Origin: a virus
Taxonomy: Duplodnaviria > Caudoviricetes
IMG/VR virus record: IMGVR_UViG_3300044840_000012
Location: 1-59,473 of that record
Reading direction: 5' to 3' (one strand)
Length of the DNA: 59,473 nucleotides
In this document: positions 9,935 to 51,197 of the stretch, piece after piece
How positions within the stretch are numbered: position 1 is the first letter of the stretch
How the letters are laid out: each line of letters opens with the position of its first letter
Made by a program: the position numbers and the translations under genes
The notes under the pieces: model-generated
Told to the model about the DNA's origin: nothing
The model's input: only the letters and a program-made list of their open reading frames with translations
Databases searched by the model: none

Positions 9935-11374
9935 TCAGACCGCGGAGATCAGGACGGTCGCGGCGGTGCTCAGCGGGAGCGGGGCGGGCCCGGGGAGCGC
10001 CAAGTCGACCGTGCCGGTGGGAGTGGCCGAAAGGCCGACCGCGAGGCCGCCGGAGCCGGGCGGGACGTACTGGACGCCCGGGACGTTGCGGATGGCCGCG
10101 ACGAGGTCGTTGTAGCGGACCACGTTGTATCCCTGGGTGGCGTTGAGCCACTGGTTCGCCACCGCAGAGCCGACGATCCCCGGGTTGCCCCAGGTCGCTG
10201 GGTTGAGGAGGTTGAGCACCGCCGCCTGGGCGTTCCCGAGGGTCGTCGGAACGTCATAGCCCGCGAGGACGTGAATGGCCGCGGTGACGTAGACCGGCGT
10301 GTAGGTCGGCGAGAGCACCTGGACTATAAAGTTGGCCTCGCGGAAGGATTGGAGCCACGCCTGGAGGGCGAGGCACGCGGGCCCCGAGGTCGTCGTCGTG
10401 CTCGCCCCGGCGAACGGCTGACCGTTCGAGTCGGTGACGAACACCGACTCCTCGCGCTGGTTGCCGTAGCTACCGGTGGCCGTGATCGTCTCCGTGGCAC
10501 TCCCGGTTGCCGGCGCGGTCATCACGAACGAGGACCCCGAGGGGTTGATCGACTGGACCGTCGTCCCAATGGGAATGTTCGCCCCCGACAGAACGGAGCC
10601 CGCAGTGACGCCCGAGAAGGTCGACACTGCCGTCACCGTCGCTGAGGTGTTCGCGACCGTGCCGGTGAACACCGAGACGCCCGGGTCGTAGCCGTCGATG
10701 GATGTCGAGCGGCCCACCGTTACCCCGGTAGCGTTGACCGCCGAGGGCGTGAGGACAAACCCCGCGAAGTCAGTCGAGGTGATCGGCCTGGGCGCCTGAA
10801 GCTGGAGCTCGCCCGTCAGGCCGTTCTGGAAATCGCCGTCAGTCTCGGCGTCCGCGCCACCCGTGCTCACGCCGATCGCCTTGACCCCGAGGACCCAGTC
10901 GATTTGGTCTACGGGCTCGACGGGATCCGTCGCGTTGTTGTAGGACGTCCCCGACTCCACGGCGACGAGAGGAACGATCGCAGTGCTCTGCCCCGGAGGG
11001 ATGACCACGTCCGCGAGGACGTAGAAGCCGAGGCTCGAGACCGTGACGTAGATGCCGCCCGGGATCGTGTGGCCGAGCGTGTCGGCGAGTGTCCAGGTCG
11101 TGCCGATGGCCGCCGCTGACCCTGGGGCGTAGGGGATTCCGAGGAGCTGCGTGCCGAACTGCCGGAACGCAGCTGAGGGCATGACCGCCGCCATGCCCTT
11201 AGCGTCGGCGAACATCTGCATGACGACCGACAGGAGGATGATCTCGCCGTCCCCGTCGCTCGGGACGTAGCCGGGGAAGCCGTTGTTCTGGAGGATCCCC
11301 GCGTACGCATCGACCGCGGTGTCGGTGAGCGTCGTTGGGTCGAGGACGATGTTCGCGTCGATGAAGTCGGTCAA
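9935..11374 (-). CDS. Baseplate J-like wedge protein
   Basis: GGADAETDGDF...PRPITSTDFA...IRNVPGVQYV. Confidence 0.9.
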   Translation of the reverse strand: MTDFIDANIVLDPTTLTDTAVDAYAGILQNNGFPGYVPSDGDGEIILLSVVMQMFADAKGMAAVMPSAAFRQFGTQLLGIPYAPGSAAAIGTTWTLADTLGHTIPGGIYVTVSSLGFYVLADVVIPPGQSTAIVPLVAVESGTSYNNATDPVEPVDQIDWVLGVKAIGVSTGGADAETDGDFQNGLTGELQLQAPRPITSTDFAGFVLTPSAVNATGVTVGRSTSIDGYDPGVSVFTGTVANTSATVTAVSTFSGVTAGSVLSGANIPIGTTVQSINPSGSSFVMTAPATGSATETITATGSYGNQREESVFVTDSNGQPFAGASTTTTSGPACLALQAWLQSFREANFIVQVLSPTYTPVYVTAAIHVLAGYDVPTTLGNAQAAVLNLLNPATWGNPGIVGSAVANQWLNATQGYNVVRYNDLVAAIRNVPGVQYVPPGSGGLAVGLSATPTGTVDLALPGPAPLPLSTAATVLISAV

Positions 11375-11697
11375 GACGGCCCCTCCTCGATCTGGGCGGT
11401 GGAGAGGATGTGGCGGATCGCGGCGTTCAGCACGTCGGGCTGGTCGGTCGCGGCGAGGACCGCTCGTGGCTCTTGAGCACTCGCGGCTTCAACGAGCGCC
11501 GCCGTGTCGATCGGGGTGGTCGTGAACAGCGGCGACGGGACCCCGAGATCGGGAAGCATGGGCACCTGGCCCTTGACGCATGAGGTGATCGCGACGACGC
11601 AGGCCGCGATCTCCTCGACGGAGTCCTGCTCGTGGACGGTCACCTTGCCGTTGCGTTGAAGCGTCCAAGGAAGCGCGATATGGGGAAGGTCGGGCAT
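11371..11697 (-). CDS. Baseplate gp25/GpW-like protein
   Basis: PHIALPW...EQDSVEEIAACV...GQVPMLPDLG...QEPR; AAGGAAG RBS. Confidence 0.85.
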   Translation of the reverse strand: MPDLPHIALPWTLQRNGKVTVHEQDSVEEIAACVVAITSCVKGQVPMLPDLGVPSPLFTTTPIDTAALVEAASAQEPRAVLAATDQPDVLNAAIRHILSTAQIEEGPS

Positions 11698-11711
11698 CCG
11701 GGCTTCCTTCC

Positions 11712-13724
11712 TTATGGCGTGGAGCTGTCGATGATGTCGCCGCGCAAGGCGAGGAAGGTCAGGAGGCTGGCTAGGGCCGCGCCACTTGCCCGTGAGCCGG
11801 TGATCGTCGCCCGGGCTACGGGGGTAGCTCCGTTCACGCCGATCGTGGTCCCGGCGTGCGTGAAGCTCCCCGCGACGTATGTGGCGCCTTCCACCAGCAC
11901 GTTCCCCGGGAAGTCCGTGAACTTCGTGACCCCGCCGTCGAATGTCTGGTAGTGAAAGCCAACCTGGCCGCGAGGATCGAACTGCCCGTCTCCCACCCAG
12001 AACCCGGATTGACCTATATCCACGCGACGATTCGGGTCCCCGCCACCAACGGCCTGGCCGGTGGCGAGAACGCCCGCCGCCCCGTGACCGAGGAAGCATC
12101 CGGTGAAACTCGTTGGCGTCAGGCCGGTGTAAAGGATCTGCTGCGGCACGCCGCTGATCAAAACGTAGAGCACGCCCCCTGTCGCGGGCCAGCCCACCGT
12201 GGACGCCACGTTGATCGTCGCCGGGTTCGTGTTCAGATTCACGCCGTTCGAGCCGGCGGCGATCGTCGTGGACGCCGAGCTGACGACGTAGCCGAGAATG
12301 ATGTCGTCGGTGGGCGCCGACATCTTCCACGCCTTCTGCACCACCTCCGTCGAGCCCATGATGTTCTGCACCAGCGCCGGTGGGGACCCCGCCGCCTTCA
12401 CCCACTGATTCGCGACGGTCGTGTACAGAACATCGCCTTGGACGGTGATCGTGTCGGTGCTGAACGTGCTGAACGCGCTCGACAGCGCCGCGAAGCTCGT
12501 GCGGCCCTGAAGCACGACCGACGTGTTCCCGCGCTGCTCGATCCCGACCGCCAGGTTGCTGTTGTCGGTGATCGTGGCGTTCACGAACGTCAAGCCGATC
12601 GACCATGCCGTGATCCCCCCGGCGTTCGCCTGCTCGACCACCACCACGCTGTAAGGGCCCGCCGTCGGATTGCCGGTTAGGACCCCGGCGATCTTGTTGT
12701 AGGTGCCGGCGCCCTGATACACGATCCCCAGGTTCTGGGTCGTGCCGTTCACGCCACCCATCGAGATCTCGAAGTTGTTCGGCCCCAGAAACTCGTTGTA
12801 GCTCGGGCCGTACGTCGTGGGAAACCCGCCGATCGTCGCCCCGGACTGGCGGATCTCCAAGTTGTAGCGGGCGCCACCCAGAAGCTCGGTGTGCCCAACG
12901 AACGAGTTGTCCCCGCACCCGTAGTCCAAGACGAGGCATGAGCCGTCGCTGTAGAGCGACGTCAGTCCCTCGAAGGTGCAGTTCTGGGCGCTCTCGATGA
13001 CGATGTTGTCGGTGCGGCAGTATTGGACGCGCAGATCGGGGAACGTCACCGAGGTAAGAAGACCGATGTACAAGCCGCCCCCGGCGACGTTGGCAACCTT
13101 GTTGCCGTCGATGGTGAACCCACCGAACGGCCCGCCCGACTGGGGGCCGCCCGCGCCACCGGAGCGGCTGCCGTAGCGGATCTGGCCGCCCGGCCCGAGC
13201 CGCAGCGTGACGCGCCCCGAGCCGGTTCCCCTGAAGGCAGGGGAACTAGTCGGTGTGATCGGAACCGTGACGACACCGTTGACCTGGTAGATGCCATCAG
13301 TGGCGATGACGCTGCCGGCGGCCAACGCAGCGTTGATACCGGCCGTCGCGTCGATGACCCCCGTCGGGTCGCAGTCGAAGTCAAGCAGCGTCGCCAACGC
13401 CCGTGAACCCCGCCGGGGGGCCGGGGGGCTCGGATCCGGCGAGCTGGACGCACCGTACAACGCCTTCCACCACACGACCAAGGGCGTCCCGTTGTCGTCG
13501 AACGCTAGCCATATCGGGGAGCCTTGGGCGGGCATCGTCTGGCCGTGGATAGCCGGCCAGTCGAGCGGTCCGTAGACATGCTCGGCGCTGTGGTTCGTGA
13601 CGAGCACGAATACCGGGTCATCGAACGACTTTGGAGCGGGGCGGCTTGTGCTGACGTAGCCGACGACGACGGGGGGCTGCTGAATCGGGGCCGTGTGAGC
13701 GAGGCCATGGAGGACGTCGGGCAT
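11712..13724 (-). CDS. Baseplate spike (gpV-like N-domain) fused to a pectate-lyase-like beta-helix
   Basis: N-term PAQGSPIWLAFDDNG; DFDCDPTGVIDATAGINAALAAG beta-helix entry motif; lies between hub and gp25. Confidence 0.75.
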   Translation of the reverse strand: MPDVLHGLAHTAPIQQPPVVVGYVSTSRPAPKSFDDPVFVLVTNHSAEHVYGPLDWPAIHGQTMPAQGSPIWLAFDDNGTPLVVWWKALYGASSSPDPSPPAPRRGSRALATLLDFDCDPTGVIDATAGINAALAAGSVIATDGIYQVNGVVTVPITPTSSPAFRGTGSGRVTLRLGPGGQIRYGSRSGGAGGPQSGGPFGGFTIDGNKVANVAGGGLYIGLLTSVTFPDLRVQYCRTDNIVIESAQNCTFEGLTSLYSDGSCLVLDYGCGDNSFVGHTELLGGARYNLEIRQSGATIGGFPTTYGPSYNEFLGPNNFEISMGGVNGTTQNLGIVYQGAGTYNKIAGVLTGNPTAGPYSVVVVEQANAGGITAWSIGLTFVNATITDNSNLAVGIEQRGNTSVVLQGRTSFAALSSAFSTFSTDTITVQGDVLYTTVANQWVKAAGSPPALVQNIMGSTEVVQKAWKMSAPTDDIILGYVVSSASTTIAAGSNGVNLNTNPATINVASTVGWPATGGVLYVLISGVPQQILYTGLTPTSFTGCFLGHGAAGVLATGQAVGGGDPNRRVDIGQSGFWVGDGQFDPRGQVGFHYQTFDGGVTKFTDFPGNVLVEGATYVAGSFTHAGTTIGVNGATPVARATITGSRASGAALASLLTFLALRGDIIDSSTP

Positions 13725-24474: not shown

Positions 24475-24509
24475 CGTTCACTCCTGACGTTTCGCATTTA
24501 CCGAAGAGG

Positions 24510-24545
24510 AACTGGGTCCCAGTGGATAACCACCGGGACCCAGCT
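24510..24545 (-). terminator. Stem-loop after the major capsid gene
   Basis: AGCUGGGUCCCGGUGG-UUAU-CCACUGGGACCCAGUU 16-bp stem just after the stop codon. Confidence 0.75.
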
Positions 24546-24550
24546 GGGCC

Positions 24551-26179
24551 TTAGTACAGGAGACCCGCGACCGCGCCGACCGGTGCCGCGAACCCGGACC
24601 CCTCGGCGAGGGAGATCGACTGCCCGTAGCGGACGAGCATGGCGATGTAGTTGTACGCCTGGAAGCGAACTTCCAGGGTCCCCGAGAGGACCTCCTCGAG
24701 GACACGGGTCCGCATGTCGCCCTCGAACAGCCAGACGTCGTCCCACTTCGCGGCGATGCCGACGTCCTGGCCGGTGCCGCCGCCCGTCGTGTCCGTCAGC
24801 GGCACGTTGCCGTCGATGTAGACGTTCGGGCCGAACGGCACGTTGCCGGCGTAGCCCTGCGCCGGGAGCTCGGCGACCTCCGTGCTCGACATGTTCAGGC
24901 CCATCCCGCGGGGCGACTCGACCAGCGGGCGCCCCGTCGAGTCGAGACCCGTCGCGTACCAGAACCACCTGCGGGGATGCAGGAGGAAGTGGAAGTCGTT
25001 GAGGTCGAAGCGGCTGTAGGACGCCTGCGACGCCATCGCTCCCATCACCTGAACGAAGTGCTGCGGGTTCGGGGTTGTGGCGGTGTAGGTGATGATGTTC
25101 GTGCCCGCCCAGTTCGTCGCCGGGTACAGGCCGAGCACCTGGCCACCGTTGAGCGTCGCGGTGTTCGTGCCGTTGCCCCAGATCACCTGACGGTCGACGA
25201 GGCGGTTGTAGTCGGCCATGAGGTCTTCCATGACGACCTGGTCGATGATCTGCCCGGGCGACTGGTCGAGCAGCTGAATCGCGACGTCCTGCTGACCGGC
25301 GACGGTCTTGACGTTCGCCTGCACCGACGTATCGGTCAGGTCGGTCGACTGGACGGCCGCGTTGTCCGCCGTTTGGACCGCCGTGGCCGTCCCGGAGGCG
25401 AGCTTCGGGATGTTGATGCTGTCGGTGCCGGGCGGGAGGTCGAGGTTGCGAGCCAGACCCGCGGCGACGCGACCGGCGCGCAGGAGCGGGATGAACTCGT
25501 CGATCAGCCACAGCGGCGGGACGAAGTAGCCGCCCTGCCCCTGGGTCCGGTTCGGGTTGACCCGACGCTCGAACGGCGTCGCGGCCAGACCGCGACGACC
25601 GGGGCCATCGACGAACGAGCCGGTGAAGTCCTTCTCGGCCTCATCGACCTGCTTCCGCGCCCGACGCTCGCGCGCCTCCAGCCGCTTGGGCATCTCGACG
25701 TCGATCTCCTTGCCGTGGCGCTGGAGCCGCTCGCGCGCCTCGTCCGGTCCGGTGGAGCGCATCGACGCCGCGACGTTCGGCAGCTGCGAGCACGCGAGGT
25801 CCTTGAAGTACGAGAACTCCTCCGCGTTGTCGGAGCGGTACGTCATCGGCTCCCGCGTAACCGAGATGCTCGGCCGCGACGCCCGCGACGCCTCGGTCCG
25901 GCGAAGCTCCTGAAGCTCCTGCTGGTCGATACGACGCGTCAGGTCCTTGATCTCCTGCTCGCGGGCCGCGAAGTCCGCGGCGAACGTCGCCTCGGCCTCG
26001 GTGAACGCGGTGCGCTCCTCGGCGGTCGGGCGCTTGCTCTCGTCCTTGTCGGCCGCGCGCTGCTCCATCTGCGTGCGCTCGGTCTCGCGGCCCTCGATCT
26101 GGGTGCCGATCTCGTCGAGCAGGGTCTTGCGCTTGTCGAGGAGCTGCTCGAGCAGGGTCCTCTCTTCGGTGGCGTCCAT
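24551..26179 (-). CDS. Major capsid protein, HK97 fold, with N-terminal coiled-coil scaffold (542 aa)
   Basis: AAAGGAG RBS; coiled-coil N-term; GGYFVPP...INIPK...DVAIQLLDQS...LLHPRRW...DSTGRPL. Confidence 0.93.
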   Translation of the reverse strand: MDATEERTLLEQLLDKRKTLLDEIGTQIEGRETERTQMEQRAADKDESKRPTAEERTAFTEAEATFAADFAAREQEIKDLTRRIDQQELQELRRTEASRASRPSISVTREPMTYRSDNAEEFSYFKDLACSQLPNVAASMRSTGPDEARERLQRHGKEIDVEMPKRLEARERRARKQVDEAEKDFTGSFVDGPGRRGLAATPFERRVNPNRTQGQGGYFVPPLWLIDEFIPLLRAGRVAAGLARNLDLPPGTDSINIPKLASGTATAVQTADNAAVQSTDLTDTSVQANVKTVAGQQDVAIQLLDQSPGQIIDQVVMEDLMADYNRLVDRQVIWGNGTNTATLNGGQVLGLYPATNWAGTNIITYTATTPNPQHFVQVMGAMASQASYSRFDLNDFHFLLHPRRWFWYATGLDSTGRPLVESPRGMGLNMSSTEVAELPAQGYAGNVPFGPNVYIDGNVPLTDTTGGGTGQDVGIAAKWDDVWLFEGDMRTRVLEEVLSGTLEVRFQAYNYIAMLVRYGQSISLAEGSGFAAPVGAVAGLLY

Positions 26180-26338
26180 GACGGACTCCTTTTCGTTTCG
26201 GGAGAGACGCCACGCGAAAGCGCGGCGGGTTGTCGGGTCTCCCGGGCGGTGCTCGACCACAAACGACGAGCGGCAGACGATCGGCCTGCCAGCGCGTCGC
26301 TGGTGAAGTCCAACGCGGGGGGTGCTACAAGACGGGTG

Positions 26339-34002: not shown

Positions 34003-34386
34003 TCACGGGATCGCGGGCAGGATCACGAACTCGATGGGTCCCGTGCCGCACTCAAGGGCAGGGCAGTCCCACTCCACGATCCAGGTGCCCGAGGCGCCTT
34101 GTAGGTCGTAGTGGAGGAGGCCTGTCCCGTCGTGGGTGATCGAGCCGGGGTAGGTTTGGGTGGTGCGTGCCCCGGTTGGGTCGTCGAGCTTCAGGGTCAG
34201 GGCTGGTGGGTCGGTGGGGGTACCTCCAACGGTGACCGCTACAGCCAATGGGATGTCGTTCCCCGGCTCGAATGCGAGGATGCCGTCGTTCTGTCTTGGG
34301 TAGAGGCTGACGATCTGGCCCACGATGCCGCTGGGGGCTGTTCCCGTGGGCTGGGCGTACTGGCTGAGCATCGTGCCTAGGAGCAT
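34003..34386 (-). CDS. Ig-like (BppU-like) virion adaptor protein
   Basis: GTPTDP...LTLKLDDPTG...HDGTGLLHYD...GTWIVEW; GGAGGA RBS. Confidence 0.65.
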   Translation of the reverse strand: MLLGTMLSQYAQPTGTAPSGIVGQIVSLYPRQNDGILAFEPGNDIPLAVAVTVGGTPTDPPALTLKLDDPTGARTTQTYPGSITHDGTGLLHYDLQGASGTWIVEWDCPALECGTGPIEFVILPAIP

Positions 34387-34398
34387 TCAGTCCTCCGG

Positions 34399-35850
34399 TT
34401 ACGCGATCTCGAGCAGGCAGACCGACCGGGCAGCCAGAGGCGGCAGGATCACCCTGCCGGCGCTTGTGCCCGCGCACGGCACGGTCTCCAGTCCCGCGTG
34501 CGAGAGGCCGGCGTCGAACTGGTTGGAGTGCGCCTGGTCGATCACCCAGAGCGTCGATGCTCGACCGTCGGCGACCGCGAGAGCGACCGTGGTTGGGTAG
34601 GTTTGCGCCCGGCTGTAGTGATGATTGGCGATCAGAACCCGGATCGTGCCCGTCAGGTCGCTCGTGGTTGAGCACGCCAGGGCATGCATCCCAGGATCGG
34701 CGTCCAGGGTGGTGGGGAGGACGTTGCCGGCGAGAAGCTTCGCCCAGAGGCGGTACGCGTTGCCTGGCGCCCAGAACCCCGTGGATGCCACGAGACCCGA
34801 GTTCGGCTGATCGGTGGGGAGCTCCAGCTTCGAGGAGAAGTAGATGCCGCGGGCGCACCCGAGGGCCTGCATCTCCATCAGCATGATCGCGGTCAACGCC
34901 GCGCCCGCATCGTTGATCTGAAGCACCTCGGTTGAGCCGGCCGCCCCGAATGGCTTGGCGGACCCGAAGCCCAGGATGTTCGAGATCGCGGTTGGCGCCC
35001 ACTCCCCCACGATCAACTCCAGTGCCGTCAGCCATCCCGCAGCGGTGATCGACCCCTGAAGCAGCGCGTACGCCCGACGGATGCTCCAGCCGGTCCCCTC
35101 ATACGCGTGAAACGAGATGAAGTCCAGAGCGACCGCGTTGGCTTTGCAGTACGTCAAGAACGGCGTCAGCCAGGTTGTCTGGGTGCCCTGGTCGAGGGCC
35201 GCCAGCTCCGGGCCGCCGATCTTTACCCCCAACCCCAGCGCCTTGACTGCTGAGGATACTGCCGCGAACAGCGCGAAATACTGGGCTGGGGTGCCCGCCC
35301 AAAACCCGCCGTCCGGCTCGTTCCACAACCCCCAGTACGGGATCGTGGCGCCCTTCTCCACCACGCAGTGGTAAACGAGGTCGGCGCACATCGTGGCGAA
35401 GCTCGCACTGTTGCTCGGCACCTCCGCACCAGGGCCGACGTACCAGCCGGTGCCGAACGGGGCGACCGTCGAAGGGGGCAGGCCGCCACCGAGAAGCTGC
35501 GGGCAGTAGTCGAGGCTGACGTAAAGCTGGGCGCCCTCGGTGGCCGCCGCGTCGATCTCCGCGTCGATCGTCGCCCACTTGTAGGAGTAGGAGCCGGAGT
35601 GACCGAGCGTCGGATGCGTCCCGTCGACCGCGCCCGCCTTGATCGGCGTGTAGTTGATCGCGCCGTCGATGCGATGCACGTTCGGGGTGCCCGCCGCGAC
35701 CACGCCAGCCGGAATGTCGCCCTGATCAGCGAACCCGAACAGCCCACCGAGGAGACGCTGATTGATGGTCTTCCCGGTCGGGGTTCCGCCGACGGTGATC
35801 GTGCTCGAGCGGATCCCGCCTGCTCGCCGGAGTGCGACAGCGCCGGTCAT
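34399..35850 (-). CDS. Glycoside hydrolase, GH39-like (clan GH-A)
   Basis: YWGLWNEPD (acid/base Glu), KIGGP, LDFISFHAY, LIVGEW (nucleophile Glu); C-terminal beta-sandwich. Confidence 0.88.
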   Translation of the reverse strand: MTGAVALRRAGGIRSSTITVGGTPTGKTINQRLLGGLFGFADQGDIPAGVVAAGTPNVHRIDGAINYTPIKAGAVDGTHPTLGHSGSYSYKWATIDAEIDAAATEGAQLYVSLDYCPQLLGGGLPPSTVAPFGTGWYVGPGAEVPSNSASFATMCADLVYHCVVEKGATIPYWGLWNEPDGGFWAGTPAQYFALFAAVSSAVKALGLGVKIGGPELAALDQGTQTTWLTPFLTYCKANAVALDFISFHAYEGTGWSIRRAYALLQGSITAAGWLTALELIVGEWAPTAISNILGFGSAKPFGAAGSTEVLQINDAGAALTAIMLMEMQALGCARGIYFSSKLELPTDQPNSGLVASTGFWAPGNAYRLWAKLLAGNVLPTTLDADPGMHALACSTTSDLTGTIRVLIANHHYSRAQTYPTTVALAVADGRASTLWVIDQAHSNQFDAGLSHAGLETVPCAGTSAGRVILPPLAARSVCLLEIA

Positions 35851-36593
35851 GGGCCGGGCACCACACCCGGGGTGCGGGCCAGCCGGTACATCACGAGATC
35901 GGAGACCGTGAGGTTCGGGGAACCGACGCTGACCGCGACACCCTGCCCGCTCTGCCAACTATCGCCCCACGACACGGGGGGAGTGCAGCCCGTAAGGGTG
36001 CCGGTGCTCGACCCGTCGACGTACAGCGTCAACACCGAGGACGCCATCGACACCGCGAGATTGACGAACGTCCCAGCCGACGCGGAGTGAGCAAAGTTCG
36101 TGATCTGATTGACCTCCCCGCTCGACGCCTGCTGGTGGCGGTAGGTCAGCCTCACGCCGAGAGGACCCACCTGCACCTGCAGGTACTGGCGGGAGTCGCA
36201 AAGGATCTGAAACGCCGTCTGCCACCCTGACAGCGACCCCCACGCCACATCGGACGCCACGTTCAGGCCGAGGGTGCCCTGGTCGGGGGCCCACAGGCCG
36301 CTCCCCGGCTTGCACAGGTAGCCGTAGTTCACGTCGCCCTGGCACTTCAGGCCATCCCGGTACTTTCCGGGGACCCGGAGCACCTTCGAGCCGCCCAGGA
36401 AATACGGGAGGTCCGCGGTCGTGCCGCCAATCTCGTTCGCGCCGATCAGCCTGCCCAGCGAGAGCGTCGTCAGGCGCTCCTCCACATCCAGATCCAGGAG
36501 GTACGTCGTGTCCTGCTCCAGGACCGGCTTGGCGGTCGGCGCCCACGCCAGAAGCGGCAGGGTGCTCGACCGCAACGCTACGGCGCCGCTCAC
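35847..36593 (-). CDS. LamG/ConA-like lectin-domain protein
   Basis: DQGTLGL...FVNLAVS...LTLYVDG...VSDLVMY. Confidence 0.75.
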   Translation of the reverse strand: MSGAVALRSSTLPLLAWAPTAKPVLEQDTTYLLDLDVEERLTTLSLGRLIGANEIGGTTADLPYFLGGSKVLRVPGKYRDGLKCQGDVNYGYLCKPGSGLWAPDQGTLGLNVASDVAWGSLSGWQTAFQILCDSRQYLQVQVGPLGVRLTYRHQQASSGEVNQITNFAHSASAGTFVNLAVSMASSVLTLYVDGSSTGTLTGCTPPVSWGDSWQSGQGVAVSVGSPNLTVSDLVMYRLARTPGVVPGP

Positions 36594-47069: not shown

Positions 47070-47522
47070 TCATTGGTCGGATTCGCCTTCTTCGGTAGGA
47101 ACATCGAACCGCACCGATTTAGTGCGCTTTGCCGTGCGCCACGCGGCGGAGCGCGCCCGCTTCTGCTCGCGCTCGCAGTCAACGCCGCATAGCCTGGTTC
47201 GTGGCGGCACGATCGGCCGCCCGCACTCTCGGCAGCAACCGCGGCAAGCGTCGAGCGCGAGAGCTTCTAGGTGGACCGCGCGCTGGATCTCTTCAGCGAG
47301 TCCCGGGGTATCGGGTCGGAACCACTCGCCCCGGAGATTCCCCTCAGTGAACCGCCGATGCAGAGCACGTTCGAGCGCCGGTGTTCCGGGGTGGGCTGCC
47401 AGAAGAACAAGGTCGACCGGGCTGCCGATCTGAAGCTCGTCGCGGCGGGCCTCGGGCTCTTGGGTGATGCCGATCTTGATCGGGCCACGCTCGCCAGCCT
47501 GGATGAAATAGACGTAGAGCAT
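47070..47522 (-). CDS. GIY-YIG (T5orf172/MUG113-like) nuclease
   Basis: YVYFIQAG..GPIKIG...LQIGSP...ERALHRRF...GEWF. Confidence 0.85.
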   Translation of the reverse strand: MLYVYFIQAGERGPIKIGITQEPEARRDELQIGSPVDLVLLAAHPGTPALERALHRRFTEGNLRGEWFRPDTPGLAEEIQRAVHLEALALDACRGCCRECGRPIVPPRTRLCGVDCEREQKRARSAAWRTAKRTKSVRFDVPTEEGESDQ

Positions 47523-48556
47523 CAGTCGTCCCCTCCCTGAGCAGCGATCCAGTCGGCGTACGACTCCATCGCGCCCTCAAGATCGCTGTCCGCCCAGTGG
47601 CCGTAGATCCCGAGCGTCGTGCTCAGATCGGCATGGCCGAGAGCGTGCGAGGCGGCGTCAATGCCGGCGACGCGGCGAAGCTCGAGCGCGAACGTGTGGC
47701 GCGCCTGATGCATGTTGAGGCCGCTCGTGACGCCCGGCCCGACGAGGCCGGCGGCCTGCGCCTGGCGATACCACCAGCGATGAACGGACTGCGGCGACGG
47801 CTGGGTCTTCGGGTACGCGTGGTGCGACCAGACGATCTGGCCCTCGCTGCCCTTGCCGTCCGCGAGCTTCTTGATCGGGTAGAGGAGGTAGTCGTCGGCC
47901 TCCGGCAGCCGGCCGAGATGGGGAAGGTCGGTGATGAGGAGGAGCCGGAGCTCGGCGAGGATCGGGCCGCGGAGCGGCATCGTCCGTTCCTTCTGGCCCT
48001 TGCCGAACACGCGGAGGCTGCCGCGTTGAGCGTCGAAGTCGCGGACCTGGATCGTCGCGAGCTCGGCGCGCCGCAGTCCAAGGACGAGGAGGCAGAACAG
48101 GCCGAGTCGGTCGCGCGGGTGCTTCGCGACGGTCAGGAGCCGCGGCCGGGCGTCCAACGGGAGCACACGGGCGACACGCCGCTCAGCTCGGGGCCGGCGG
48201 ATCCTCGAGGCGGGACTGATGGCGATGTGGCCCTGTTCCTCGCACCAGCCCCAGAACGAGCGGATGACGCTCGTGACCTTCTGGCGGGTGCGAGCGGTCT
48301 GGAGACTCCAGAGGTCTATGACGTCGCGGAGGTCTTCGACGGATACCTCGATGAGCTGCTTGTCGGCGAGGGTGAGGCTCATCCGGGCGAGGATCGCCTC
48401 GTAGTCGCGGACGGTCGCCGGCGTGGCGCCGTACTCGTTGCGCAGCCACCGGATGTACCGGGCGACCATCGTCCCGAGCGGGGTGGCCCGGTAGGACTGG
48501 TCTTTCATCAGGTCCCGGATCATCGGGGCGAGCTGGGCCGCGGTCAAGGCGCTCAT
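47522..48556 (-). CDS. int: Tyrosine recombinase / integrase
   Basis: LGLRRAEL (R), GKGQKER (K), HQARH (HxxR), LGH, IYGH (Y). Confidence 0.95.
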   Translation of the reverse strand: MSALTAAQLAPMIRDLMKDQSYRATPLGTMVARYIRWLRNEYGATPATVRDYEAILARMSLTLADKQLIEVSVEDLRDVIDLWSLQTARTRQKVTSVIRSFWGWCEEQGHIAISPASRIRRPRAERRVARVLPLDARPRLLTVAKHPRDRLGLFCLLVLGLRRAELATIQVRDFDAQRGSLRVFGKGQKERTMPLRGPILAELRLLLITDLPHLGRLPEADDYLLYPIKKLADGKGSEGQIVWSHHAYPKTQPSPQSVHRWWYRQAQAAGLVGPGVTSGLNMHQARHTFALELRRVAGIDAASHALGHADLSTTLGIYGHWADSDLEGAMESYADWIAAQGGDD

Positions 48557-48900
48557 GCCCAGTCCTCGAACTCTCGCCCGGCGAGCAGGACGAACTCGAC
48601 GAGCTCGGGCACGGGCCTGAACCATTCGCCGCGGATGCGGGCGTAGGCGTACTCGTCGTGGATCTGCTTCTCCTCGAGCGGCAGGATTCGCCACGCCGCG
48701 AGACCGCGGAGCTCGGCCGCGTTGCCGACCTGGAGCGTCGCCAGCCGGTCGGAGGGCTTTCTCGTGACCCCGAGCTTGATCGGGCCGTCTTCGCCGGCCT
48801 GGATCGCGTACATCCAGAGGAAGCTGTGGCGGCGAAGAGCCTCGCGCATGATCCGCGCGGCCTCCGCGAGAGTCAAGGCGTTGACCGGTTGGGCGCTCAT
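48553..48900 (-). CDS. GIY-YIG (T5orf172/MUG113-like) nuclease
   Basis: MYAIQAGEDGPIKLG...RLATLQVGN...EKQIH...RGEWF. Confidence 0.85.
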   Translation of the reverse strand: MSAQPVNALTLAEAARIMREALRRHSFLWMYAIQAGEDGPIKLGVTRKPSDRLATLQVGNAAELRGLAAWRILPLEEKQIHDEYAYARIRGEWFRPVPELVEFVLLAGREFEDWA

Positions 48901-49082
48901 GGCGAGCCACGCGACGAATCGTTGTGGCGCCCGGGCGTGGACGGCTTGAGGACCGGGTTGGCTTGGTTCGCGTGGCGGACGGTGACCGGCCGGCCGGGGA
49001 ACCGGGCGCGCATCAGCTTGATGACGGCAGCCTCGGCTAGCTTGATCTCGAGCGAGTTGAGCGGCTTCCAGTGAGCGCTCAT
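48897..49082 (-). CDS. Small hypothetical protein
   Basis: ATGA coupling on both sides. Confidence 0.5.
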   Translation of the reverse strand: MSAHWKPLNSLEIKLAEAAVIKLMRARFPGRPVTVRHANQANPVLKPSTPGRHNDSSRGSP

Positions 49083-50266
49083 GCTGTACTCGTCTTGTCG
49101 AGGGAGGACTCGTAAGCCATCACGCGGCGTCCGATCCACTCGGCGACAGGGACCGTGACCGCGTTGCCGCAGGCTGCGTAGCGGGGGCCGTCGGGCTTGG
49201 GATCGTCCACCCGTCGGGGAAGCCCTGAAGACGCTCGCATTCCGTCGGGGTAAGGCGGCGGACAGAGGACGCCGACCGAACCGTCTCGATCAAGGGTTGG
49301 GGCGTCGCCGTGGCGGTGGACTCCACGTCCGTTGGAGCCGCCGTGGCCGCTGACGCGGAGCGTGAGCGGGGTTCCCCGGCCGGTTCCGTCTTCACTGGCG
49401 TCGAAGCCCTCAGCTCTGAGGGTGTGGGCGATGAGATTCTCGTCGTCCTCCTGCCGTCGCCCGGGTGCGCTGACGCCAGGTCCGCTAGAGCCTCGGCTAA
49501 GGCTTGCGGCAACTCTCTGCCCCGCTTCTCGGCCCGCCGCAGGATCCCGGCCGCTGCTCTCGGGCTCAAGAAGAACCTGTCGGGCACCGTCTCCAGAAGC
49601 ACGTCGGGCAACGATGAAGACACGGCGCCGACGTTGGGGGACTCCGAAGTAACGGCTGTCCAGCACTCGCCAGGCGAGGTCGTGAAACCCGACGTCGCCC
49701 AGCGTCCGCAGAACGACTGCGAAATCTCGGCCACCGGCGGAACTGAGCAGGCCGGGGACATTCTCAAAGAGGAGCCATCCTCCAGGTCGAACAAGCTCGT
49801 CGGCAATGCGGGCGAACTCGAAGAACAGGACGGATCGGTCGTCGGCGAGTCCTCGTCGCTGGCCAGCGACGCTGAGTCCCTGACAGGGCGTGCCTCCACA
49901 GAGGAGATCAACACCGCAGGCGGCTTGATCGCCTCCACCGTTGGAGACTTGTCGCCGGTCGGGAGGCTCCGGCTCCGCGAGTCCGCGTGCCAGTTGAACG
50001 CGAGAACCGGAGTCCGCGCCTGCGAGTGGAACTCGTGACCATTCAACGTCGGGCAGACCGGCGTCTCCGTCCAGATGTCCGCCTCGTCCAAGGCCCCCCG
50101 ATGAGACTTCTCGAATGTCCGGGTAGCAGGGCACGCCGGGCCAGTGCTGGGCAAGGATCCCCCGGCAGAAGGCGTCGCGCTCGCACTGCCAGACGACTCG
50201 CATCCCGGCTCGCTCAAGGCCAAGGTCGATGCCGCCGATCCCCGTGCAGACCGAGCCGACATTCAC
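49079..50266 (-). CDS. C5 cytosine DNA methyltransferase, alpha chain (motifs I-VIII and X)
   Basis: CTGIGG, GGTPCQ, ENVPG, PQRRRRVF, RYAACGNAV; motif IX absent from this frame. Confidence 0.9.
   Translation of the reverse strand: MNVGSVCTGIGGIDLGLERAGMRVVWQCERDAFCRGILAQHWPGVPCYPDIREVSSGGLGRGGHLDGDAGLPDVEWSRVPLAGADSGSRVQLARGLAEPEPPDRRQVSNGGGDQAACGVDLLCGGTPCQGLSVAGQRRGLADDRSVLFFEFARIADELVRPGGWLLFENVPGLLSSAGGRDFAVVLRTLGDVGFHDLAWRVLDSRYFGVPQRRRRVFIVARRASGDGARQVLLEPESSGRDPAAGREAGQRVAASLSRGSSGPGVSAPGRRQEDDENLIAHTLRAEGFDASEDGTGRGTPLTLRVSGHGGSNGRGVHRHGDAPTLDRDGSVGVLCPPPYPDGMRASSGLPRRVDDPKPDGPRYAACGNAVTVPVAEWIGRRVMAYESSLDKTSTA
49120..50262 (-). CDS. Overlapping alternative-frame ORF: putative methyltransferase beta chain carrying motif IX
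   Basis: 380 open codons; VRRLTPTECERLQGFPDGWT (motif IX); FLSPRAAAGILRRAEKRG; ATG directly after upstream TGA. Confidence 0.75.
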   Translation of the reverse strand: MSARSARGSAASTLALSEPGCESSGSASATPSAGGSLPSTGPACPATRTFEKSHRGALDEADIWTETPVCPTLNGHEFHSQARTPVLAFNWHADSRSRSLPTGDKSPTVEAIKPPAVLISSVEARPVRDSASLASDEDSPTTDPSCSSSSPALPTSLFDLEDGSSLRMSPACSVPPVAEISQSFCGRWATSGFTTSPGECWTAVTSESPNVGAVSSSLPDVLLETVPDRFFLSPRAAAGILRRAEKRGRELPQALAEALADLASAHPGDGRRTTRISSPTPSELRASTPVKTEPAGEPRSRSASAATAAPTDVESTATATPQPLIETVRSASSVRRLTPTECERLQGFPDGWTIPSPTAPATQPAATRSRSLSPSGSDAA

Positions 50267-50760
50267 GCCGCCATCCTCGGGAACGCCACGCGAGAAGCGT
50301 CAGCCTTGACGTAGAGCGGATGCCACGGAGCCCCAGCCTTGGTCAACTTGAGGCAGGAAACCGGCGTAGGTGCGACGAGGGAGAGCACCCGGGCGACGCG
50401 GGGAGCCGAGGCCTGCTTGTCCGCTCCCCACGCGGCGACCACCTCATCGCTGTCCTCCGCCAGCCTGCGAATCCACTCGTCGTTCTCCGGGCCGACCGGA
50501 TCAGCCGCGCCACGAAGTTCCCTCGGATCGGTCGCCCGGTACGCGTAGAGGTTGACCACGTGGAGGCGAGCGAAGCCCCAGGCTCGCGCGAAGCCAACGC
50601 ATCGTCGGATCGTCGGATCGTCAACCGAGGCGTCAGCCGTTGACGGGTTGAGCATCACGAAGAGGACGGCGCCGCACCCGCCGAGCCAGTCGCCGCGCGT
50701 CAGGGCGTAGCGGTAGGTCCCGTCCTCCGAGATGACCGCACCGTCGGCTAGCGTCGTCAC
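50263..50760 (-). CDS. DUF1643-family protein
   Basis: YRYAL...FVMLNPSTAD...DDPTIRRC...VNLYAYRATDP...AAWG...PWHPLY. Confidence 0.9.
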   Translation of the reverse strand: MTTLADGAVISEDGTYRYALTRGDWLGGCGAVLFVMLNPSTADASVDDPTIRRCVGFARAWGFARLHVVNLYAYRATDPRELRGAADPVGPENDEWIRRLAEDSDEVVAAWGADKQASAPRVARVLSLVAPTPVSCLKLTKAGAPWHPLYVKADASRVAFPRMAA

Positions 50761-51197
50761 GCCGCCATCCTCGGGGTGAGCGAAGCCGACCAAACCCACA
50801 CATTCGCCCCCGTTGGTGAGCCGTACCGGACCGACGCATGAAGCTCGGTGACGTACCGGTCATCGGTCAGCAGACGGCCGTCCACCATCCCGTCGAGGCT
50901 TGCTCTGACGAGCTTGTCGATGTCTCCGGTGCAGGGAAACCCGTGCGTCGATTTGGCGGGCTCGGCGACGACGAACTCGACCCGGACGGCGTACGGCGGG
51001 CTTGCGCGGTGCCGTGCCGCTGCCCGCGCGCACTCCCAGGCGACGGTGCTCGTCCAGTCCTTCTCGAACTTCGAGGCGGGGCGGGAGTAGGGGCGGCCGT
51101 CCTTGCGGACCCCTCGGGTGCGGGAGCCCTTCGGGGCGGGGCGGCCCGAGATCCAGATCGGCTCGCTGTTCGGGCTCTCGCGGATGTCAGAGCGCAT
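50757..51197 (-). CDS. rusA: RusA-family Holliday junction resolvase
   Basis: GRPAPKGS...DIDKLVRASLDG...DDRYV. Confidence 0.9.
   Translation of the reverse strand: MRSDIRESPNSEPIWISGRPAPKGSRTRGVRKDGRPYSRPASKFEKDWTSTVAWECARAAARHRASPPYAVRVEFVVAEPAKSTHGFPCTGDIDKLVRASLDGMVDGRLLTDDRYVTELHASVRYGSPTGANVWVWSASLTPRMAA

What the first reader, a model, noticed from the sequence alone, without database searches (positions are those of the whole stretch)
49079..50266. C5 methyltransferase locus coded in two frames over ~1.1 kb (split alpha/beta enzyme)
Seen: frame A (395 aa) holds motifs I-VIII and X, but where motif IX belongs it reads PPPYPDGMRASSGLPRR. The shifted frame B (49120..50262, 380 aa, no stops) reads VRRLTPTECERLQGFPDGWT there. 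Frame B also contains FLSPRAAAGILRRAEKRG and, under a ~60-aa low-information insertion of frame A between motifs III and IV (~49920-50105), a segment resembling phage MTase target-recognition repeats (CPTLNG...AFNWH...SPTVEA..PPAV). Both starts sit within GTGAATG after the upstream gene. Knowledge: M.EcoHK31I is a heterodimer whose beta chain carries motif IX and is encoded in an alternative frame inside the alpha gene. Inference: an extended version in which almost the whole gene is dual-coding and beta may carry extra specificity.
Basis: partly seen in the sequence, partly recalled or inferred. Interest (0 to 1): 0.8.

Follow-up and report, generated by a model that had tools for sequence, protein, structure and literature searches.

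The report
Two-frame phage cytosine methyltransferase gene
One stretch of phage DNA appears to encode two proteins in two reading frames that together make one DNA cytosine methyltransferase, and the second, hidden frame turns out to be conserved inside related methyltransferase genes of many other phages.

Summary
Frame A (49079-50266, minus strand, 395 aa) is a C5 cytosine methyltransferase that carries motifs I-VIII and X. Frame B (49120-50262, the +1 frame, 380 aa, no stops) carries motif IX.

An open +1 frame is not rare at 67% GC: 27% of synonymous shuffles reach the same length. The support comes from comparison instead.
- Motif IX lies in the +1 frame in 12 of 27 related genes and in frame A in 14.
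- A second block, FLSPRAAAGILRRAEKRG, lies in the +1 frame in all 23 genes that have it.
- Over that block the wobble position is that of frame B.
- GC by codon position switches between A-type and B-type along the gene.
- In 7 of 7 annotated phage methyltransferase genes checked, the B-like match lies in the +1 frame. These include 42%-GC Streptococcus and Brochothrix phages, where 0 of 1000 shuffles give so long an open frame.
- A profile of the B core finds 8164 predicted protein clusters.
- The complex model places B on A (0.82, best control 0.00).

Best reading: an M.EcoHK31I-like alpha/beta enzyme whose beta ORF spans almost the whole alpha gene. Its core is a widespread overlapping gene for which I found no paper. 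No expression or activity data exist.

The parts
49079..50266 (-). [quoted passage not shown]
   Evidence: AF2 model is confident at residues 1-55, 116-235 and 360-395 and below pLDDT 50 at 60-100, 103-115 and 236-357.
49120..50262 (-). Frame B ORF (beta, 380 aa, ATG start), +1 relative to A, no stops
   Evidence: 833 database proteins resemble it. The +1 frame is open from the gene start to at least nt 682 in 24 of 27 loci.
50260..50266 (-). GTGAATG: the A start GTG overlaps the upstream stop TGA, and the B start ATG follows it directly
   Evidence: NTGAATG is present in 13 of 23 loci. Codon 2 is AAT in 13 of 13 of these, against 42 of 191 Asn codons elsewhere. The upstream genes differ between loci but end at that TGA.
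50274..50278 (-). GAGGA, a Shine-Dalgarno-like site 7 nt before the GTG and 11 nt before the ATG
   Evidence: Read directly. Similar GGAGG/GAGG sites lie upstream in relatives. Its function is inferred.
50228..50254 (-). A motif I (SVCTGIGGI)
   Evidence: G9, G11, G12 invariant; Pfam profile 3-54.
49909..50091 (-). B residues 58-118, a target-recognition-like module (CPTLNG..AFNWH..SPTVEA..PPAV), lying under a low-information insert of A (A 55-118)
   Evidence: GC by codon position is 0.86/0.62/0.56 in A phase, the signature of frame B. Identity to L001 is 21/32 in B against 15/32 in A. Weak likeness to frame-A modules of L019 and L013.
49871..49897 (-). A motif IV (GGTPCQGLS), with the catalytic Cys128
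   Evidence: G124, G125, P127, C128, Q129 invariant.
49748..49765 (-). A motif VI (ENVPGL)
   Evidence: E168, N169, V170 invariant.
49616..49636 (-). A motif VIII (QRRRRVF)
   Evidence: R212, R213, R215 invariant.
49447..49908 (-). B core (B 119-272), overlapping A motifs IV-VIII and the stretch after them; matches PHROG 16143
   Evidence: The profile finds 8164 representatives. B 186-221 contacts A 171-233 in the complex model.
49459..49611 (-). B 218-268: LPDVLLE..FFLSPRAAAGILRRAEKRGRELPQALAEALADLA, two helices
   Evidence: pLDDT above 90 with helices 234-247 and 253-264. B-frame wobble signature. In the +1 frame in 23 of 23 loci that have it.
49204..49263 (-). B 334-353: motif IX (VRRLTPTECERLQGFPDGWT)
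   Evidence: Contacts A 10-15, 33-41, 204-211 and 359-377 in the complex model.
49145..49168 (-). A motif X (GNAVTVPV)
   Evidence: G367 invariant. A-type wobble and GC3 of 0.84.

Best explanation
The locus holds two overlapping genes of a temperate phage of a high-GC (67%) host. Both are read from one ribosome-binding region at starts 4 nt apart (GTG for A, ATG for B), directly at the stop of the upstream gene.

Alpha (frame A) is the catalytic large domain of a C5 cytosine methyltransferase. It has motifs I-VIII and X, plus its own target-recognition modules.

Beta (frame B) is largely disordered except for three working parts: (i) an N-terminal recognition-like module, (ii) a conserved core ending in a basic two-helix hairpin, and (iii) motif IX.

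Beta binds alpha. Its core packs on the motif VII-VIII strands, and its motif IX helix fills the slot between motifs I, VIII and X that a single-chain enzyme fills itself. The result is an alpha/beta enzyme like M.EcoHK31I. Along the DNA the two frames alternate: where one encodes a folded part, the other reads a linker.

Shown here: the ORFs, the motifs, conservation of both frames, and frame-specific constraint. Inferred: translation of B from the ATG at 50262, heterodimer formation, the need for beta, and any role in specificity.
For: (1) Motif IX is in the +1 frame (Pfam 8.7e-6; TIGR00675 1.1e-5).

(2) The same layout occurs in WIN plus L001-4, L006, L019, L032 and L033, with a variant in L020-22. 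That is 12 of 27 classified genes. 14 have motif IX in frame A and 1 has it in a separate downstream ORF.

(3) In the 12-of-27 type, B runs unbroken from the core to motif IX. In the frame-A type, the +1 frame closes just after the core and then carries 4-14 stops.

(4) Codon-position diversity: A wobble at A codons 1-225 and 361-395; B wobble at 241-255, with values 0.52/0.33/0.23 in A phase. Across 13 sequences from several phyla the YFLS..GILRRAEKRGK block gives 0.40/0.33/0.59 in B phase.

(5) The GC3 signature alternates between the frames (the phage's other genes have GC3 0.86-0.91).

(6) Real domains sit in frame with the B core elsewhere: HNH (P0085, P0119) and motifs IX+X (P0239, P0300).

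(7) Start context: 13 of 13 AAT at codon 2, and 0 stops in +1 codons 2-57 in 23 of 23 loci.

(8) Complex model: score 0.82, best of 3 controls 0.00. That mark was reached by 58 of 80 solved complexes and 2 of 110 mismatched pairs. The runs agree in at least 48% of contacts, and the partner pLDDT is at least 57. Because single-chain C5 methyltransferases are solved, the motif-IX part of this pass may come from likeness to them.

(9) Confidence in the two single-chain models is complementary. A is below pLDDT 50 over 236-357. B is confident at 222-268 and around 75 over 331-350.

(10) In M.EcoHK31I, beta lies wholly in another frame of alpha, carries motif IX, and needs its N-terminal part to associate with alpha (passages of PMC2836561; PMC3404938).
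Against: - There are no expression, proteomic or activity data. 
- In this window alone the open +1 frame is unremarkable (p=0.27).
- B folded alone is mostly disordered, with mean pLDDT 55.
- B's first ~57 codons show only A-type constraint, so the true start of beta could be internal.
- Between the distant low-GC pair L044/L052, codon identity at conserved residues is no higher inside the overlap than outside, 0.47 against 0.44.
- The shuffle z-scores may be inflated, because frame C scores also rose.
- The tree does not resolve how often motif IX changed frame.
- Homology of B to the M.EcoHK31I/M.EaeI beta chains was not shown; there is only an Atlas lead at 0.87.
Confidence: 0.72

Rival explanations
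1. The B core is a real overlapping gene, but its job is not to complete the enzyme. It could be a regulator of methyltransferase expression or an anti-defence or DNA-binding factor. Motif IX would then have been fused to it secondarily, or be dispensable here.
For: In 14 of 27 genes alpha is complete (motif IX in frame A) and yet the B core is still kept, so the core has a role apart from carrying motif IX. Its best-folded part is a basic helical hairpin. It has no Pfam, NCBIfam or PDB relative.
Against: The core is found in frame with methyltransferase parts in several lineages: recognition-like modules, motif IX, and motifs IX+X. The model packs invariant core residues (G192) on invariant alpha residues (W199).
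Confidence: 0.13
2. Only frame A matters. The +1 frame is open by chance in a high-GC gene, and motif IX was knocked out of frame by indels, leaving a decaying or inactive methyltransferase.
For: 27% of synonymous shuffles keep the +1 frame open as long. Long same-strand overlapping ORFs are common in this window.
Against: The same two-frame layout is kept in 8 further loci at 52-60% identity, with motif X back in frame A and under A-type constraint. The +1 ORF is kept in 42%-GC phages, where 0 of 1000 shuffles match it. Frame-B wobble is seen.
Confidence: 0.08
3. One polypeptide is made by programmed ribosomal frameshifts, +1 before motif IX and -1 after it, and possibly more.
For: The 'meaningful' segments alternate between frames in the order of a normal single-chain enzyme. 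Relatives carry the block ENQRAEV..GKPGQGYP..motif IX in frame A (L009) or in frame B (L006, L033).
Against: At least two, and up to six, shifts would be needed. I saw no canonical slippery heptamer in the window between motif IX and PDGPRY. The linkers there differ in length and sequence among relatives. Frameshifting does not explain why the +1 frame is open from the gene's first codons in 24 of 27 loci, nor the conserved ATG.
Confidence: 0.05
4. Sequencing or assembly indels created an apparent frame change.
For: The record is a metagenome-derived virus contig.
Against: A 9591-nt Logan contig of run X1 (depth 15.8) covers 48900-50500 with 0 differences and 0 gaps, although it may come from the same sample. 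Independent contigs and MAGs show the same layout.
Confidence: 0.02

Closest known systems
M.EcoHK31I (and its isoschizomer enzyme M.EaeI), a heterodimeric C5 methyltransferase
   Same: Beta is encoded in another reading frame inside the alpha gene. Alpha has motifs I-VIII, X and the recognition domain. Beta has motif IX. Beta's N-terminal part is needed for association with alpha (passages of PMC2836561; PMC3404938).
   Different: Here beta spans 1143 of the 1188 nt of alpha and shares its start region. It carries an extra recognition-like module and a core that is conserved across phyla. Sequence homology to the EcoHK31I/EaeI chains was not tested, because I had no sequence of them. An Atlas cluster named 'EaeI methyltransferase beta subunit family' was only a 0.87 lead and did not recur. 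The original 1995 paper was not held.
M.AquI, a two-subunit C5 methyltransferase
   Same: A natural split into two polypeptides that must associate (PMC3404938 passage). Database proteins P0239 and P0300 (B core + motifs IX + X) look like this type.
   Different: In M.AquI the small subunit carries motifs IX and X. In the window motif X stays in alpha. The extent of gene overlap in M.AquI was not checked here.
PHROG 16143 (139-aa phage proteins labelled 'DNA methyltransferase')
   Same: It is the B core. The +1 ORF of Streptococcus phage IPP53 matches at 2.5e-56, that of mycobacteriophage Omega at 5.2e-11, and the window's B at 1.9e-5. Some NCBI records annotate it as a 140-aa 'methyl transferase'.
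   Different: The family label does not say that these proteins are the +1 frame of a methyltransferase gene. The window's B is 380 aa, with added modules at both ends.

Membership tests
C5 cytosine DNA methyltransferase (Pfam PF00145 / TIGR00675) | Profile match above the curated cut-off | tested here: met
   A scores 141.7 bits against a cut-off of 22 and 140.3 against 100.65 for TIGR00675. B alone scores 25.8 bits against 22, on motif IX only.
C5 cytosine DNA methyltransferase (Pfam PF00145 / TIGR00675) | Catalytic motifs: GxG (I), PCQ (IV), ENV (VI), QxRxR (VIII), GN (X) | tested here: met
   All are present in frame A and invariant in the 23-row alignment. The motif names are recalled nomenclature.
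C5 cytosine DNA methyltransferase (Pfam PF00145 / TIGR00675) | All ten motifs in one chain | tested here: not met
   Motif IX (profile 255-302) is only in the +1 frame.
M.EcoHK31I-type alpha/beta methyltransferase | The beta ORF lies within the alpha gene in another frame | tested here: met
   49120-50262 lies inside 49079-50266, in the +1 frame.
M.EcoHK31I-type alpha/beta methyltransferase | Alpha has motifs I-VIII and X; beta has motif IX | tested here: met
M.EcoHK31I-type alpha/beta methyltransferase | Both chains are made, associate, and are needed for activity | not testable with these tools
   Only a model is available: score 0.82 against best control 0.00.
M.EcoHK31I-type alpha/beta methyltransferase | Sequence homology to the EcoHK31I/EaeI chains | not tested
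   No sequence of them was on hand. The Atlas lead at 0.87 was not reproduced.
M.AquI-type split | The small subunit carries motifs IX and X | tested here: not met
   Motif X is in frame A.
B-core family (PHROG 16143) | Profile match, and location in the +1 frame of a C5 methyltransferase gene over motifs IV-VIII | tested here: met
   B 127-235 matches phrog_16143 at 1.9e-5. The location is the same in 7 of 7 annotated phage genes and in L048.

The most novel reading that the evidence does not exclude
The +1-frame 'B core' is an old overlapping gene, apparently unrecognised, embedded in a large clade of phage-type C5 methyltransferase genes. It occurs in phages of Actinomycetota, Bacillota, Alphaproteobacteria and Vibrio. 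On this reading these enzymes are generally two-protein machines rather than monomers. In high-GC phages the overlap has grown to the whole gene, and functional modules (recognition modules, motif IX, even an HNH nuclease domain) move between the two frames. The window would be one of the most extreme cases: two interleaved proteins from 1.1 kb.
Probability: 0.55. Interest if true: 0.9.

Novelty: new variant of a known kind. Interest (0 to 1): 0.78.

Why it matters
A passage of PMC3404938 names only two exceptions to monomeric C5 methyltransferases, M.AquI and M.EcoHK31I. If the +1 ORF is translated, several things follow.

- The two-chain form is common in phages. The B-core profile finds 8164 clusters at 50% identity.
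- Many phage 'DNA methylase' annotations miss half of the enzyme.
- Predictions of activity or specificity from the annotated chain alone would be wrong wherever motif IX sits in the hidden frame.
- The locus would be an unusually long same-strand overlap with alternating constraint. That makes it useful for studying how overlapping genes arise and how protein modules move between frames.
- Cultured relatives exist in which it can be tested directly: mycobacteriophage Omega, pneumococcal prophages and Caulobacter phage DMCA.

Tried and rejected
1. Shuffle test on the window alone. It was not significant (267 of 1000), so the open frame by itself is not evidence.

2. Cross-species +1-frame alignment scores against synonymous shuffles gave z of 2.0-14.4. 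I use them only as weak support, because frame C scores were also raised and WIN/L022 gave z=2.0.

3. Codon identity inside versus outside the overlap. Pneumococcal phages gave 0.98 against 0.70, which may reflect mosaic recombination. The distant pair L044/L052 gave 0.47 against 0.44, which is no signal.

4. Tree of the catalytic core (27 rows, 160 columns). 16 of 24 inner branches were open, so the number of frame changes of motif IX cannot be told.

5. B-core homology to known structures or families.

6. The EaeI-beta lead (score 0.87). It was not reproduced with the Streptococcus B core, and no such name appeared among 120 listed short hits.

7. The recognition-like module of B 58-118. It matches only close relatives well (L001 at 4e-9, L004 at 1e-3). 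Likeness to frame-A modules of L019 is at E 0.27.

8. Literature. Searches found no paper describing a general +1 ORF in C5 methyltransferase genes. The library lacks most subscription journals, PMC306636 was not held, and the supplements of PMC2836561 were not seen.

9. Sequencing runs. No RNA holder was listed. Run X2 holds only a diverged relative.

11. Rows dropped before the counts. L012 and L013 had an uncertain start or a broken frame. L024-L031 and L034-L043 were partial or distant matches. These were left out. One search included L012, L013 and L034.
Full report
WHAT IS THERE. The window is a complete linear virus record of 59,473 bases at 67% GC. Its neighbours mark a temperate phage: a tyrosine integrase, RusA, two MUG113/T5orf172 genes, and a DUF1643 gene directly upstream.

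On the minus strand, frame A (49079-50266, GTG start, 395 aa) and frame B (49120-50262, ATG start, 380 aa, the +1 frame of A) are both open. The third frame has about 10 stops.

Frame A matches PF00145 at 4.8e-41 and TIGR00675 at 1.1e-40. Frame B residues 318-361 match positions 255-302 of PF00145 at 8.7e-6, above the curated cut-off. A six-frame search of the record shows the same split of the profile between the two frames. GTG, TGA (the upstream stop) and ATG are nested in GTGAATG at 50260-50266, and a GAGGA lies 7 nt upstream.

IS IT MORE THAN CHANCE? Not by openness alone. 267 of 1000 synonymous-codon shuffles of gene A keep a +1 frame as long, and long overlapping ORFs abound in this window. 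The case therefore rests on comparison.

RELATIVES. The search for related loci gave 31 viral and 12 genomic loci. I analysed 22-26 of them, dropping L012, L013, L024-31 and L034-43 as broken, partial or distant.
- The +1 frame is open from the gene start to at least nt 682 in 24 of 27 genes.
- Motif IX is in the +1 frame in the window and in L001-4, L006, L019, L032 and L033. A variant, LNPTWVEWLMGFP, is in the +1 frame in L020-22. That makes 12 of 27.
- Motif IX is in frame A in 14 of 27. In mycobacteriophage Omega it sits in a separate downstream ORF.
- The block FLSPRAAAGILRR is in the +1 frame in all 23 genes that have it and never in frame A.
- Where motif IX is in frame A, the +1 ORF ends just after that block, and 4-14 stops follow.
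- Where motif IX is in frame B, the +1 ORF runs on unbroken to it.
- L032 and L033 are MAG contigs of Solirubrobacterales, so the layout recurs in independent assemblies.
- A Logan contig of run X1 matches the window over 48900-50500 with no difference and no gap, though it may be the source sample.

WHICH FRAME IS UNDER SELECTION WHERE. Three measures agree.
- Codon-position diversity in a 20-row codon alignment shows A-type wobble over A codons 1-225 and 361-395. Over A codons 241-255 (B: ILRRAEKRGRELPQA) it shows B-type wobble, 0.52/0.33/0.23 in A phase. Third-position diversity is lowered over codons 181-210.
- In 13 sequences from phages of several phyla, the YFLS..GILRRAEKRGK block gives 0.40/0.33/0.59 in B phase.
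- GC by codon position alternates. Other genes of this phage have GC3 of 0.86-0.91. In the methyltransferase gene, A 1-54 and A 358-395 are A-type (GC3 0.83 and 0.84). A 55-118 and A 226-270 have their richest position in B's third place (0.86 and 0.82). The rest is mixed.

In the insert, B identity to L001 is 21/32 against 15/32 in frame A.

The two AF2 models are complementary. A is confident at 1-55, 116-235 and 360-395 and below pLDDT 50 at 60-115 and 236-357. B is confident only at 222-268, where it forms two helices, and moderately at 331-350.

THE B CORE IS WIDESPREAD. tblastn of B against 50,697 phage records hit 50 records. In 7 of 7 that I opened, the match lies in the +1 frame of the annotated methyltransferase CDS, inside an open frame of 135-221 codons. 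These were Streptococcus IPP53, mycobacteriophage Omega, Roseobacter CRP-821, Caulobacter DMCA, Brochothrix BtpYZU01, a Vibrio phage, and Sinorhizobium NV1.1.1.
- In the 42%-GC genes (L044, L052) and the 54%-GC Vibrio gene, 0 of 1000 shuffles give such an ORF.
- In the higher-GC genes the test is weak, with p from 0.045 to 0.66.
- An Oscillospiraceae genome shows the same arrangement.

The ORF is PHROG 16143: IPP53 matches at 2.5e-56 and Omega at 5.2e-11. Some NCBI records annotate it as a 140-aa 'methyl transferase'.

BLASTP of the window's B against the IPP53 ORF gives 35% identity over 121 residues, E 2e-13 for the single comparison. A profile of the core (17 rows) finds 8164 representatives at E<=1e-3, 4458 at <=1e-10 and 594 at <=1e-30 among 1.84 billion.

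It is not a property of all C5 methyltransferase genes. PF00145 rings in 9 of 14 control genomes, phrog_16143 in none.

In other lineages the core is in frame with an HNH domain (P0085, P0119), with recognition-type modules (L016, L006, P0003, P0321), or with motifs IX+X (P0239, P0300). This is hard to explain unless the frame is translated.

STARTS. 13 of 23 loci have NTGAATG. In all 13, codon 2 of A is AAT, which creates B's ATG, whereas AAT makes up 42 of 191 Asn codons elsewhere. Others have paired starts a few bases apart. The +1 frame has no stop in codons 2-57 in 23 of 23 loci, where the per-locus chance of that was 0.20-0.92. The upstream genes are unrelated between loci, yet they end at that TGA. 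I infer coupled initiation of both chains from one site. An internal start for beta is not excluded.

COMPLEX MODEL. A (23-row alignment) with B 176-360 (67-row alignment) scored 0.82, against 0.00 for the best of 3 controls. That mark was reached by 58 of 80 solved complexes and by 2 of 110 mismatched pairs. The runs agree in at least 48% of contacts, and the partner's pLDDT is at least 57.
- B 338-356 (motif IX) touches A 10-15, 33-41, 204-211 and 359-377.
- B 186-221 touches A 171-233. This includes invariant B G192 against A 198-199, where W199 is invariant.

The model supports binding but does not show it. Since single-chain enzymes are solved, the motif-IX part may pass by likeness to them.

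COMPARISON WITH WHAT IS KNOWN. According to passages of PMC2836561 and PMC3404938:
- M.EcoHK31I has beta encoded entirely in another frame of alpha.
- Its beta holds motif IX, and its alpha holds motifs I-VIII, X and the recognition domain.
- N-terminal deletions of beta weaken association with alpha.
- M.AquI splits differently, with IX and X in the small chain.
- These two are named as the exceptions among characterised C5 methyltransferases, most of which are monomers.

The window meets the architectural features of the EcoHK31I type. Homology to its chains was not tested. It differs in the extent of the overlap (1143 of 1188 nt), in the shared start region, in the extra module, and in a core that is conserved across phyla. 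I found no paper on such a general +1 ORF, within a library that lacks most subscription journals.

VERDICT. The most likely mechanism is an alpha/beta C5 methyltransferase made from two interleaved reading frames (confidence 0.72). The rivals are an unrelated function for the core (0.13), chance plus decay (0.08), multiple frameshifting (0.05), and sequencing error (0.02). It is a new variant of a known kind. The broader reading, an overlapping gene in thousands of phage methyltransferase genes that I did not find described, is the more interesting claim and is directly testable.

Noticed in passing
L020:3001-3897, L021:3001-3993, L022:3001-4008: A second type of two-frame gene. In these three loci the +1 frame carries WPTP-type repeated modules and the motif-IX variant LNPTWVEWLMGFP. 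Frame A reads EPDVGRVADGVP.RVD over the same DNA and then motif X. The whole small domain appears to sit in the hidden frame.
   Followed up: partly
P0085, P0119, P0039, P0120, P0073 (database proteins, no DNA seen): HNH endonuclease domains (PF01844, PF14279) lie in frame with the B core. In P0085 and P0119 they are inserted where alpha has its loop between motifs III and IV.
   Followed up: partly
L045:1173-2477 (Mycobacterium phage Omega gp127/gp128): The methyltransferase is annotated as two successive genes: gp127 with motifs I-VIII and gp128 with recognition modules, motif IX and motif X. A 159-codon +1 ORF (1342-1821) lies inside gp127, so there may be three products.
   Followed up: partly
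window 50263-50799 (-): The DUF1643 gene ends at the TGA inside GTGAATG. In relatives the upstream gene is a different one but ends at the same place.
   Followed up: yes
window 47070-47522, 48553-48900 and 47522-48910 (-): Two MUG113/T5orf172-domain genes flank a tyrosine integrase. The 462-codon integrase ORF has Pfam matches only from residue 150, and its 5' part overlaps the 48553-48900 ORF, so the real integrase start is probably internal.
   Followed up: no
window 11371-13724, 24498-26260, 34052-35958 (-): Other long same-strand overlapping ORF pairs are present. They are probably high-GC chance frames but were not examined.
   Followed up: no
window 49143-49912, run X2: A second study's run holds a 1303-nt contig of a diverged relative of this gene. 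It has blocks of 151 and 207 other letters where the window has 94 and 0. This fits variable linkers between conserved parts.
   Followed up: no
P0276, P0233, P0286 (Streptococcus pneumoniae records): These are chimeric proteins in which frame-A and frame-B stretches of the prophage methyltransferase gene are joined in one ORF. They probably arose by deletions or frameshifts in degenerate prophages.
   Followed up: no
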